A stretch of 64,000 bases of DNA from Amoebidium appalachense. Taxonomy: Eukaryota > Protista > Ichthyosporea. Each line of letters begins with the position of its first letter. The stretch's first letter is position 1. Under the pieces are notes generated by a model. That model saw nothing but the letters and a program-made list of their open reading frames with translations. It had not been told where the DNA came from and did not search any database. The position numbers were made by a program, and so were the translations under genes. Of this stretch, positions 47,201 through 50,200 are shown piece by piece. The stretch is from NCBI GenBank assembly GCA_963693365.1, contig CAVNZM010000002.1, forward strand, positions 3,984,259 to 4,048,258, given 5' to 3'.

Positions 47201-50200
47201 ACACACACACAGGGCATACCTCGTGACCAAATAGACCCACTCGTTGAAGTTAAAGCAACGTGGAACCGACACGGGCCGTGGAGGTTGCTGGATGTTGGGT
47301 CGTGCTTTAACGGCTTTGCAGCGTTTAAAGAATTCACCGTGGATGCGGTTGATCTCACACCAGCCCACCCATCCGTGCATCAGGTAGCGGGCTGGGGTGT
47401 GTGTGTGTGTTTTGGGGGGGGGGGGGGGGGGGGGGGGGGGGGGGGAGCACCTGTCCGATACAGTGTTTTTTCGCTTTTGTGGTGTTTGCTTGTTGTTTGA
47501 CCCATTTTGTCGGATGTGGTTTTGTACTCCGTACTGCGTAACACATGCTAAGCCTTCCTTTTTCCTTTCCCCCTTCTCACTCTTTTTTTCTCTTTTTCCT
47601 TCTTTCTTTCTTCCTTTTTTTTTTTCGTTCCCCTGTCTCTCGTTAGTTTTCTACCCTTCGGTTTTTTTTTCTTTTTTTTTTTTCTTCTTTTTTTTTTTTT
47701 TTTTTTTTTTTTTCTTCCCGGAGAGCGGGTGGGGTGGGGGGGGGGGGGGGGGGGGGGGGGGGGGGGGGGGGGGGGGGGGGGGGGGGGGGGGGGGGGGGGG
47801 GGTGAAGAAAGCGCACACATGGATCACCGACTTTTCTCTCCTGCTCTCTCCTTTCCACCCATCTTTTACTTTTGTCTCTTCTCTTACGTACCCCTACCAC
47901 CATTAGCATCAACACTACTTCTCCCCCATACGCACACCACACAAACACAAGGGCGCGCACACACTCACAGACATACGGACACACACACGTATATACGCAA
48001 CCATGCACACTATTGCATTACTAACCCATATTCTCCCCTCCGCTCTCCCCTTCACTTCCTCCCTATTTTTCTTGCTTCTGCTTACTGCTGCAACTTTAAC
48101 CCCCGGCCTTTCCCACTGCCCTTGCCTGCATAAGCAACCCTGCTCGTCTCTGATCAAGACGGGTGACCTACTCATGTTCAAGTGAAACAGTATCTGAGTT
48201 GGGTTTCGTTAACGAGGGGAATAGGTCGAAACTCGGGTACTGTGGATGACGTGGGCCCCCCCTGAGGATGGGCTCTGCTTATTATGCATACTCTTTATGT
48301 ATGGCTTGCATTCTGCATCGTGTTATCCGTTTGTTCTTGTGTACTTCGTACTTTTTAACGCATTCAAAACCCCCCCCCCTCCCCCCCCCCCCCCCCCCCC
48401 CAATACCTCCCTGAGGATGTGCTCTGCTAATCGTGCATACTCTTTATGTTTTATTTGCACTCTGCATTTGTTGTCCGCTATGAATGTGTACTCTATAACA
48501 CTTTCTAACCCCCCCCCCCCCCTCTCTCTCTCTCTCCCCCTCCCCCCCCCCCCCCCCCCCCTCCCCCCCCCCCCTCCCCCCCCCTTCTCCAGTGTGACTT
48601 TCTCAACGTGGTTCCCTGCCACAACTCCAAGTACCCGAATGGTCCCGAACCGTTGCACCAAAACTCGACCCGTACCAACTCAAATGGTTCACATTCAGAA
48701 CCATGCACACGGGAAATTTCGTTCAAGGCAGAAAAAACGAATGAAGAGAAAAAACAAAAAACTGGGGCACAAAAACGAAAACACGACGGCGAAGACAACC
48801 AGGATGACGACTCTCAGCCTGACGAAACCCAAAGATGCAGCTGCACAATTACGGAAAACGGAAACGAAAATAACGGAAAAGAAAGGACAGCGGTGCGATG
48901 CCTTCCCAACCAGGGCTACGACGTGGTTGTATTTTCGCTTCTCCTTTCGTATTTTCCGGGTACTACTCAGCGTTTTCAGTGTGTGCGCACGGCGTGGGCT
49001 CTGCTGAGAGAAAATGGGCTTCTTCTTGTGATTACCCCAGATAGCAATCACCACAACAAGGGGGTCCAAATGATGAAGGTGGTTAGACGTGTGTGGTGTG
49101 TGTGTGTGTGTGTGTGTGTGTGTGTGTGTGTGTGTGTGTGTGTGTGTGTGTGTGTGTGTGTGTGTGTGTGTGTGTGTGTGTGTGTGTGTGTGTGTGTGTG
49201 TGTGTGTGTGTGTGTGTGTGTGTGTGCGCGCGCGAGCGCGGAGGTGGGGGGGACTGGATGTGTTTTGGGTGGGTGGGTGTGGTGGGGGGAGGAGAGGGTG
49301 GTTCAGTGCGTGGGTAGGCGTGTGTGTACGTGTGTGGATGCAAGGGGTGTGTGTGTGTGTGTGTGTGTGTGTGTGTGTGTGTGTGTGTGTGTGTGTGTGT
49401 GTGTGTGTGTGTGTGTGTGTGCTTGTGTGTGTGTCTGTGTTCGTGCGTGCGTGTGTGGGCGTGTGTGCATGCATGCGTGTATGGAGATAGTAGGGGTACG
49501 AGTGGACGGGCCTATGTGTACGTGTTTGCACCCGTGCTGTGCGTGTGTTCCCCAATTCTCTACACCCTGTCCCATTCCGATCCAGCTCTTCTCCGTGCTT
49601 GGGAAAAGCGCGGGGGCCGGGGGGTGGGGTGGGGGGGTGGGGATGGGGGGGGGGGGGGATGGGGGGGGGGGGGGGGGGGGGGGGATGGGGGGGGACGGGG
49701 ACGGGGGTAAGAGGAGGGAGGGGGGAGACAGAGGAAGGGGACTTGGGGAGATAAGAGAAAGTGGAATCAAAAGGGGGGGGGGGGGGGGGAGGGGAGGGGG
49801 GGGGGAGAGGGGGGGGGGGGGGGGGAGAGGGGGGGAGGGGGGGGGGGGGGGCACGGATGGATTGAACCGGTTGTGCTTGATTGATGCATCATGTGCACTA
49901 TTTCTAAACCGAAGTCATTAATATCAAATCAAGAGAACTGTCATCAAGCAAAACAACATGCAAGGTCATTTAATTGGGCCGATGCCTTATACTTTCTACC
50001 TTTTTTGGATTTATTTAACCTATTGTCCGACACAGGATTGGAGAAAGGCAATCGAAGCTGTGGGCTTCAGCCGCATCAAATATGTATGGACCCCCCCCCC
50101 CCCCCCCGGCCCTCCCTCCCCTTAACCCCTCTGGTCCCTCCCTCCCTCTCTCTCTCTCTCTCTCTCTCTCTCTCTCTCTCTCTCTCTCTCTCTCTCTCTC

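What the first reader, a model, noticed from the sequence alone, without database searches (positions are those of the whole stretch)
48128..48282. Candidate hammerhead ribozyme with non-canonical (reversed, pseudoknotted) strand order
Seen: two diverged subfamilies (A at 48128-48282 plus three CNOT4 copies; B at 51288-51449) keep GUU, GUC-GAAAC and CUGAGGA while neighbouring bases change. A relic at about 59508 reads CUGAUGA. All three helices lie where hammerhead numbering requires and covary. Stem III: ACAGUAUCUGAGU/ACUCGGGUACUGU (A) versus GUCUGAGU/ACUCAGAC (B), with A15.1-U16.1. Stem II with G10.1-C11.1: GACCUA/UAGGUC, GACCCA/UGGGUC (30.7-kb copy) and GACCCU/GGGGUC (B). Stem I: GGG/CCC (A) versus GGAG/CUCC (B), a G-C to A-U swap at pair 1.3-2.3. 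Further helices are CUCGUCU/AGACGGG, a palindromic linker (UCGUUAACGA versus CGUAUAUACG) and a closing AUAAGCA/UGCUUAU. Established: types I, II and III are cyclic permutations of CUGANGA > GAAA > NUH. Here the order is NUH > GAAA > CUGANGA, and A9 is not joined to G10.1. Inference: a new pseudoknotted hammerhead topology that type I-III descriptors would miss. Caveats: stem I is only 3-4 bp, and the 3D feasibility of the linkers is unverified.
Basis: partly seen in the sequence, partly recalled or inferred. Interest (0 to 1): 0.92.

Follow-up and report, generated by a model that had tools for sequence, protein, structure and literature searches.

The report
Split-core knotted hammerhead in jumping repeat
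A high-copy repeat in this eukaryote's introns carries every catalytic base of a hammerhead self-cutting RNA in a knotted order with its core interrupted by two extra helices, a wiring not found in the papers searched, and it likely cuts the repeat's transcript into unit-length RNAs for copying, although cutting is untested.

Summary
Five full copies lie in the window. A descriptor of the fold finds four of them and nothing in 45 Mb of simulated sequence; the fifth has lost a stem I pair. The reversed order (cut site, GAAA, CUGANGA) is not new: it is type SGC (Eckert 2023, shown to cleave in vitro). A distant metagenome homologue (L155) keeps all 31 pairs of six helices, 10 changed on both sides, and breaks the rival pairings. 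It lies just behind the frame of a retrotransposon with a restriction-like endonuclease. Two published Naiad consensus tails read the same way. The window's copies are 5'-truncated retroposons ending at poly-C; one is 1.4 tandem units of 437 nt. Likely role: cutting transcripts into unit RNAs, perhaps circles. Cleavage, circles, partner element and host taxon are unshown. This scan noted the same wiring earlier in other (animal) genomes. Verdict: new variant of a known kind.

The parts
48130..48282 (+). Subfamily A ribozyme candidate, whole fold from closing helix to closing helix
48130..48140 (+). 5' strands of closing helix P0 (48130-36, pairs 48276-82) and of P0b (CCC 48138-40, pairs GGG 48270-72 right after A9-U); together the first helix inserted into the core
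   Evidence: consensus fold of four sequences
48143..48163 (+). Hairpin P5, 7 bp with loop CUGAUCA; second inserted helix, leads through U48164 into G10.1
   Evidence: 4 of 7 pairs change on both sides in L155, loop unchanged
48165..48170 (+). Stem II 5' strand (G10.1 = 48165), pairs 48222-48227 as a pseudoknot
   Evidence: matched minor variants on both strands in run X9, 4.2% and 4.1%
48171..48180 (+). Stem I-II interaction helix and kink-turn C-stem, 5' strand (pairs 48247-48255)
   Evidence: same place as the interaction helix in the HRIMA-1 alignment
48181..48186 (+). Predicted kink-turn: 3-nt bulge 48181-83, then G.A, A.G, A.G with 48244-46
   Evidence: B has the same tandem GA pairs with another bulge; consensus recalled, lead from earlier notes
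48187..48203 (+). Block S: stem III strand (U16.1 = 48199), U17 = 48200, predicted cut 48200/48201, stem I strand GGG
48204..48221 (+). Stem I to stem II linker with a 10-nt perfect palindrome (48206-15): hairpin or dimer site
48222..48243 (+). Block G: stem II 3' strand, C11.1, G12-A13-A14 (48228-30), A15.1, stem III strand
48256..48269 (+). Half of block C: C-run with stem I 3' strand (48259-61), CUGAGGA (48262-68), U48269
48064..48372 (+). 5'-truncated retroposon copy A48, about 90-nt tail ending at a poly-C tract
33612..34232 (-). Longest A copy in the window, still 5'-truncated; intact core at 33821-33724
40848..41095 (-). A copy truncated at the 5' edge of the fold; intact core
30553..30870 (-). 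A variant copy: compensated stem II pair, two C-to-U wobble changes, broken pair 1.1-2.1
51290..51448 (+). Subfamily B ribozyme candidate; predicted cut 51362/51363
50933..51553 (+). B insertion: one 437-nt unit preceded by 184 identical bases of the previous unit, starting 7 nt 3' of the predicted cut
59485..59732 (+). Two decayed 3' fragments, one with CUGAUGA at 59507
35729..35789 (-). Decayed 3' fragment; further fragments at 9014-8891, 31260-31138, 34519-34407, 5144-5074 (all -) and 48406-48556 (+)

Best explanation
This is a retroposon-borne RNA that is predicted to fold into a hammerhead ribozyme of the reversed (type SGC) wiring whose core is opened between A9 and G10.1, and it likely cuts itself after U48200 to trim the element's transcripts into unit-length RNAs. 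Shown by sequence and comparison: all core bases; stems I, II and III in hammerhead register; an interaction helix joining the strand after stem II to the strand before stem I, as in SGC; a closing helix and a hairpin plugged in where SGC has one bulged U; 5'-truncated copies with a shared 3' end at poly-C. Inferred: a nested scaffold (closing helix, P5, and the rod made of interaction helix, kink-turn and stem III) folds first and leaves three strands free, which close stems II and I as pseudoknots; cleavage gives 2',3'-cyclic phosphate and 5'-OH ends and is slow or conditional; two cuts in a tandem transcript release a monomer (437 nt for B) that a host ligase may close; the reverse transcriptase of an autonomous partner copies it into poly-C tracts. 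The closest homologue sits behind a retrotransposon frame with a restriction-like endonuclease, so such an element is the likelier partner; a Naiad/Chlamys Penelope-like element is the alternative.
For: Core and stems in register; descriptor 4 hits in window, 0 in 45 Mb null. A against L155: 31 pairs, 20 same, 10 changed on both sides, 1 on one side, 0 broken; 0 of 1,000,000 random placements did as well; P5 (4 two-sided changes of 7) and P0b were in neither the search pattern nor the filter. A profile of window copies alone finds L155 at E=6e-9, next best 0.27, among 226 loci. The consensus fold of four sequences gives the nested scaffold and leaves the pseudoknot strands free. HRIMA-1 rows show the same stem II, one-base spacer, interaction helix and U after A9, and SGC ribozymes cleave. 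A base between positions 9 and 10.1 is common in PLE hammerheads (PMC4209133 passage). Kink-turn pattern in A and B. Depth in DNA run X9 falls steadily from the 3' to the 5' end. L155's upstream frame is 56-59% identical to the end of P0125/P0122, and P0125 has a CCHC knuckle, RHD and PD-(D/E)xK-like motifs. Naiad_Ovul and the record before it show the same strand order (read by eye); Craig 2021 flagged 8 Naiads as half cores.
Against: No cleavage data. Stem I is only 3-4 bp. The scaffold with core strands free lies 6.9 (A), 9.0 (B) and 12.0 (30.7-kb copy) kcal/mol above the minimum-energy fold before pseudoknots are added, and A folds no better than shuffles (z -0.90; B -2.63). Every full copy spans the predicted cut, so its template was uncut or rejoined. 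13 of 13 listed insertions lie in the sense direction of host genes (0.016 expected from the strand share of C-runs, insertions not independent), which speaks against fast constitutive cutting. L155 has the triplet UUU with a U.G pair at 16.2-15.2 and lacks one kink-turn A. [quoted passage not shown] No partner frame was found next to the window's copies.
Confidence: 0.68

Rival explanations
1. It is an ordinary type-SGC hammerhead: stem II forms from the strand that follows A9 and its bulged U (48270-75), and the upstream strand is only a competing, switching strand.
For: The U-G after CUGAGGA matches the SGC descriptor; G-C and G.U pairs can form next to the core.
Against: The third pair is G.G in all four sequences and L155 breaks 2 of 5; the duplex is worth -2.2 to -3.5 against -6.7 to -8.7 kcal/mol for the upstream strand. 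The published SGC descriptor logic finds 0 sites in the window. The interaction helix follows the upstream strand, as SGC requires of the true stem II strand.
Confidence: 0.07
2. The fold is real but not catalytic: a hammerhead-derived structure kept as a binding site for the partner's reverse transcriptase at the RNA's 3' end.
For: It lies near the 3' end where non-LTR proteins bind (established knowledge); genomic copies span the cut; all listed insertions are sense to host genes; the kink-turn and the unchanged P5 loop suggest protein contacts; UUU triplet in L155.
Against: Bases that matter for chemistry (G8, G12, A15.1-U16.1, a non-G at 17) are kept in A, B, L155 and two Naiads while helices turn over; position 7, free in hammerheads, varies (G, C, U). 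B's partial unit starts 7 nt from the predicted cut.
Confidence: 0.17
3. The ribozyme is active only as a dimer, paired through the palindrome in the stem I-II linker and perhaps the UGAUCA loop, as minimal Penelope hammerheads are.
For: A palindrome sits at the same place in three different sequences (10, 10 and 6 nt; a 10-nt one arises in 0.9% of random 18-mers); dimer activity is known for PLE hammerheads.
Against: The same bases form plain hairpins; self-duplex energies beat shuffles only in A (36, 405 and 141 of 2000 shuffles as low); stem III is long, so the usual reason for dimers is absent; the Naiad tails read have a 2-nt linker there.
Confidence: 0.15
4. Chance motifs inside a young repeat.
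For: Three of five copies are identical over the core; no Rfam match.
Against:: no null hits, compensated changes in six helices, an independent homologue with the same wiring.
Confidence: 0.02

Closest known systems
Type-SGC hammerhead ribozymes (HRIMA-1 and SGC variants; Eckert et al. 2023, PMC10085705)
   Same: Order of cut site, GAAA and CUGANGA; doubly pseudoknotted stems I and II; 5-bp stem II followed by one base and a helix that ties stem II to stem I; U after A9.
   Different: Block C is split: the stem II 5' strand comes first and two helices replace the bulged U, which the paper assumed could not happen; the fold is a circular permutation of SGC opened at that bond. Stem III is joined to the interaction helix by a predicted kink-turn; the stem I-II linker is 19-23 nt with a hairpin, not about 3 nt; about 155 nt against at most 104; genomic retroposon against metatranscriptome RNAs opposite hairpin ribozymes.
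Type I, II, III hammerheads (Rfam clan CL00010), including PLE minimal hammerheads (Cervera and de la Pena 2014, PMC4209133)
   Same: Core bases, NUH site, G10.1-C11.1, extra base after A9, place in a retroelement end.
   Different: Strand order is non-circularly permuted; best Rfam match 14.2 bits against a threshold of 34, stem II and GAAA only.
Non-LTR retrozymes (Cervera and de la Pena 2020, PMC7229834; Li et al. 2026, 10.64898/2026.07.22.740005)
   Same: Non-coding repeat with one ribozyme per unit; B is more than one unit in tandem.
   Different: Not a type I hammerhead; unit 437 nt (A at least 770 nt); mostly dispersed 5'-truncated copies in introns; circles not shown.
Naiad/Chlamys Penelope-like elements (Craig et al. 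2021, PMC8557442)
   Same: Reported to lack canonical hammerheads but to hold half cores 35-50 nt apart (here 34 nt); two Naiad tails show this wiring; Chlamys favour (C)n and (CA)n targets.
   Different: No PLE frame was found for the window's element; the Naiad tails have a 5-bp stem I and a short linker.
Non-LTR retrotransposons with a restriction-like endonuclease (Hero-like; clade name recalled, not from a call)
   Same: The nearest homologue, L155, lies about 25 nt behind the end of such a frame.
   Different: Ribozymes I found described for non-LTR elements are HDV-like and 5' (PMC6765202 passages); this one is hammerhead-like and 3'. The link is shown for L155, not for the window's copies.

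Membership tests
Hammerhead ribozyme (class) | Core C3-U4-G5-A6-N7-G8-A9, G12-A13-A14, A15.1-U16.1, H17 | tested here: met
   A, B and L155
Hammerhead ribozyme (class) | Stems I, II, III adjoining the core in register, with covariation | tested here: met
   Two-sided changes in each stem across A, B and L155; one broken pair in the 30.7-kb copy; R-scape not run
Hammerhead ribozyme (class) | Tertiary contact between stems I and II | tested here: met
   5-7 bp interaction helix kept in 4 of 4 sequences; 3D position inferred from SGC
Hammerhead ribozyme (class) | Site-specific self-cleavage with 2',3'-cyclic phosphate and 5'-OH | not testable with these tools
   No raw RNA reads were offered; contigs cannot show ends
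Types I-III hammerhead | Cyclic order CUGANGA > GAAA > NUH, no pseudoknot in the core; Rfam threshold | tested here: not met
   Order is reversed; Hammerhead_1 14.2 bits against 34
Type SGC hammerhead | Order S > G > C with interaction helix and U after A9 | tested here: met
Type SGC hammerhead | Uninterrupted block C (A9, at most 1-2 bases, then the stem II strand) | tested here: not met
   Stem II strand is upstream; downstream alternative has G.G and breaks in L155; descriptor logic finds 0 sites
Type SGC hammerhead | Short linker (0-8 nt) between stem I and stem II strands | tested here: not met
   19-23 nt with a hairpin or palindrome
Kink-turn | C-stem, 3-nt bulge, tandem G.A and A.G pairs (consensus recalled) | tested here: inconclusive
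   Pattern complete in A and B; one A is G in L155; no structural test
Non-LTR retrozyme | Non-coding tandem unit with a ribozyme | tested here: inconclusive
   B is 1.4 units of 437 nt with no long frame; A copies are single and truncated
Non-LTR retrozyme | Type I hammerhead | tested here: not met
Non-LTR retrozyme | Abundant circular RNA | not testable with these tools
   No listed run is on record as RNA
3' end of an autonomous RLE non-LTR or Penelope-like element | Upstream reverse transcriptase/endonuclease frame | tested here: inconclusive
   Met for L155 by homology to P0125; none found beside the window's copies, which are truncated

The most novel reading that the evidence does not exclude
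A split-core, knotted hammerhead is the shared hidden 3' ribozyme of two unrelated retroelement groups (restriction-endonuclease LINEs and Naiad-type Penelope elements) and of their short parasites, reaching beyond animals; it cuts unit-length RNAs that are circularised and copied round, so that some LINEs move through an RNA circle.
Probability: 0.38. Interest if true: 0.86.

Novelty: new variant of a known kind. Interest (0 to 1): 0.68.

Why it matters
It would break the stated rule that the CUGANGA block of a hammerhead cannot be separated from stem II, adding a topology beyond the six permutations proposed in 2023, and would move non-circularly permuted hammerheads from soil RNA replicons into eukaryotic chromosomes. 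It offers a testable answer to why Naiad elements seem to thrive without a hammerhead (they would have one that descriptors miss), and suggests a 3' processing step, perhaps circle formation, for a LINE group. A hammerhead with its ends at the A9/G10.1 bond is also a new place to attach aptamers. A short in vitro transcript decides the main question.

Tried and rejected
Rfam: whole window, 83 matches at E up to 1, none on the element; local scans gave only sub-threshold matches and no second ribozyme on the opposite strand. No whole genome is held, so no genome-wide alignment. Of the first 176 loci 1 passed the full filter (L155) and 1 more only without the interaction helix (L016); of all 226 only L155 matched the profile. 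Expression: no RNA holder listed; X4 and X20 are only guessed to be RNA, so their depth is not used. Host taxon: three homologue searches were uninformative (best 59% for the oxidoreductase; none); left undetermined. A hairpin closing round CUGAGGA (48253-58 with 48270-75) forms in A and B but breaks at 2 of 6 pairs in L155: kept only as a possible off state. An extension of stem I by 48216-18 was dropped because 48218 is U in 47% of depth in X9. The pair count on the automatic alignment (93% paired, 9 two-sided pairs, 0 of 500 shuffles) is affected by a one-column slip of L155 and omits pair 1.3-2.3, so one search is used instead. The window's APE-RT LINE copies share no 3' sequence with the element and are rejected as partner. 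Atlas search with the L155 peptide gave no usable hit. Motif searches of the Craig supplement gave 0 hits; one search showed other Naiad tails with GAAA before CUGANGA that I did not parse, and no clear Chlamys case.
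Full report
Observation. 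The window holds five full copies: A at 48121-48290 (+), identical cores at 33865-33696 and 41095-40930 (-), a 95% variant at 30803-30634 (-), and B at 51281-51455 (80%), plus about eight 3' fragments. A descriptor for the order stem II strand, cut site, GAAA, CUGANGA hits 4 of the 5 full copies, nothing else in the window, and 0 sites in 45 Mb of Markov sequence (it was written from these copies). The fifth copy fails because 2.1 is G. Rfam has no match near threshold.

Anatomy. In A: closing helix P0 (48130-36/48276-82) and P0b (48138-40/48270-72); hairpin P5 (48143-63); stem II (48165-70/48222-27); an interaction helix (48171-77/48249-55); a kink-turn pattern (bulge 48181-83, G.A pairs with 48244-46); stem III (13 bp); GUU with the cut predicted after 48200; stem I (48201-03/48259-61); a palindromic linker; CUGAGGA at 48262. 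The consensus fold of four sequences gives P0, P0b, P5, the interaction helix and stem III as a nested scaffold and leaves the strands of stems I and II and the core unpaired. Energetically the scaffold is not favoured outright: 6.9 to 12.0 kcal/mol above the minimum-energy folds before the two pseudoknots are added, stem II being worth -6.7 to -8.7 as a duplex. A alone folds no better than shuffles (z -0.90), B does (z -2.63).

Comparative test. Between A and B, 31 pairs in six helices show 4 two-sided and 3 one-sided changes and no break (136 of 1,000,000 random placements as good). A relaxed pattern returned 118 of about 150 metagenome loci; with 58 viral loci, 1 of 176 passed the structural filter, L155. 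A profile built from window copies alone ranks L155 at E=6e-9 among 226 loci, next best 0.27. Against A it keeps all 31 pairs with 10 two-sided changes. Parts of stems I-III and of the interaction helix were forced by pattern and filter; P5 (4 two-sided changes of 7, same loop) and P0b were not. The rival stem II from the strand after A9 has a G.G third pair throughout and breaks at 2 of 5 in L155; the rival hairpin round CUGAGGA breaks at 2 of 6. Against activity in L155: triplet UUU, U.G at 16.2-15.2, one kink-turn A changed. In DNA run X9 the two sides of the fifth stem II pair vary at 4.2% and 4.1% (unphased); core variants above 1% are C3U (1.4%) and U4C (1.2%).

The element. Copies share a 3' end at poly-C and are cut short at the 5' side. 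Twenty public runs from 7 studies hold the stretch, none on record as RNA. In X9, 6,480 contigs lie on 33612-34395, summed depth falls from about 860,000 at the 3' end to about 21,000 at the 5' end against about 22 in the flank; this is no copy number but marks a very abundant, 5'-truncated family. Subfamily A runs on at least 148 letters beyond 34232. B is one 437-nt unit preceded by 184 identical bases that begin 7 nt 3' of the predicted cut, which fits a template cut there or a circle, but also a stall at the structure. All 13 listed insertions are sense to their host genes; 75 of 103 long C/G runs are C on the sense strand, giving 0.016. The host is an intron-rich eukaryote that I could not place; gene names other than IDO and the trehalase-like domain are recalled.

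Partner. L155 lies about 25 nt behind the end of a frame 56-59% identical to the C-terminus of P0122/P0125. P0125 has a weak zf-RVT match (E=7e-4, below cut-off), CCHC, RHD and PD-x-E motifs and Atlas neighbours at 0.92-0.93, all eukaryotic: a non-LTR element with a restriction-like endonuclease; the name Hero is recalled and also came from earlier notes. P0121 joins the peptide read 3' of the L155 ribozyme to sequence 5' of it, implying a unit of about 819 nt on an 827-nt contig, as a tandem or circular unit would (one contig, DNA not seen). No such frame was found in the window, and the window's APE-RT LINEs share no tail with the element.

What is known. Eckert et al. 2023 (PMC10085705; abstract, introduction, sections 7, 13-16, first part of 18, supplement parts 1, 5, 8 and a term search) describe type SGC, all from metatranscriptomes, five shown to cleave at 0.007-0.13 per min, and assume block C is never interrupted. 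Their alignment shows the same stem II, spacer, interaction helix and U after A9; joining the ends of SGC and reopening it after A9 gives this topology. Craig et al. 2021 (PMC8557442; passages and supplement searches) report no canonical hammerhead in Naiad and most Chlamys, flag 8 half cores, and give (C)n as a Chlamys target; Naiad_Ovul and the record before it read, by eye, in the same order with a hairpin before G10.1. Also seen: PMC4209133, PMC3088659, PMC13725137, PMC10162972, PMC6765202, PMC2632901 (passages), PMC7229834 (abstract), 10.64898/2026.07.22.740005 (part 1 of 5, supplements closed). Ten searches found no description of a helix-split core or of an SGC-type ribozyme in a retroelement; the library lacks most subscription papers, and Weinberg et al. 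2015, cited for extra-helix variants, was not read.

Earlier notes of this scan (unchecked AI notes) describe the same wiring in other, animal genomes. My split-core reading was noted before I saw them; the kink-turn, Naiad and Hero leads came from them and were tested in part here.

Verdict. A real, conserved fold that works like a type-SGC hammerhead but fails SGC membership on the uninterrupted block C. Most likely a slow or conditional self-cleaving ribozyme at the 3' end of a retroposon (0.68); the processing role and circle are inferred. New variant of a known kind; interest 0.68.

Noticed in passing
window 19757-22997 (-), 53456-55724 (+), 60903-63910 (-): Three 93-98% identical copies of a LINE with an RVT_1 domain; the frame ends beside a (CA)n tract and is broken by stops or frameshifts.
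   Followed up: partly
window 13536-14411 (-): Fragment resembling the endonuclease end of a second LINE family by eye; no Pfam match.
   Followed up: no
window 16300-17923 (+): Flavin oxidoreductase (old yellow enzyme, PF00724) with one intron; best relatives 52-59% identical, mostly bacterial, some red algal.
   Followed up: partly
window 5144-59732: All 13 listed insertions of the element are in the sense direction of their host genes, more than the C-run strand bias explains; seven cluster in one gene.
   Followed up: partly
window 48150-48156 and L155 423-417: The P5 loop CUGAUCA is unchanged while its stem turns over; it differs from the core CUGAUGA by one base and contains a 6-nt palindrome. 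Role unexplained.
   Followed up: no
L155 709-35 with protein P0121: A second contig appears to hold the L155 element as a circularly permuted unit of about 819 nt.
   Followed up: partly
window 35789-35729 (-): In this decayed fragment two changes restore a perfect 6-bp hairpin round the CUGANGA-like loop, hinting that the alternative hairpin is kept in some subfamily.
   Followed up: partly
run X9 on window 33612-34395: Contigs with 19-26 differences over about 170 bases show older subfamilies whose letters the tool does not print.
   Followed up: no
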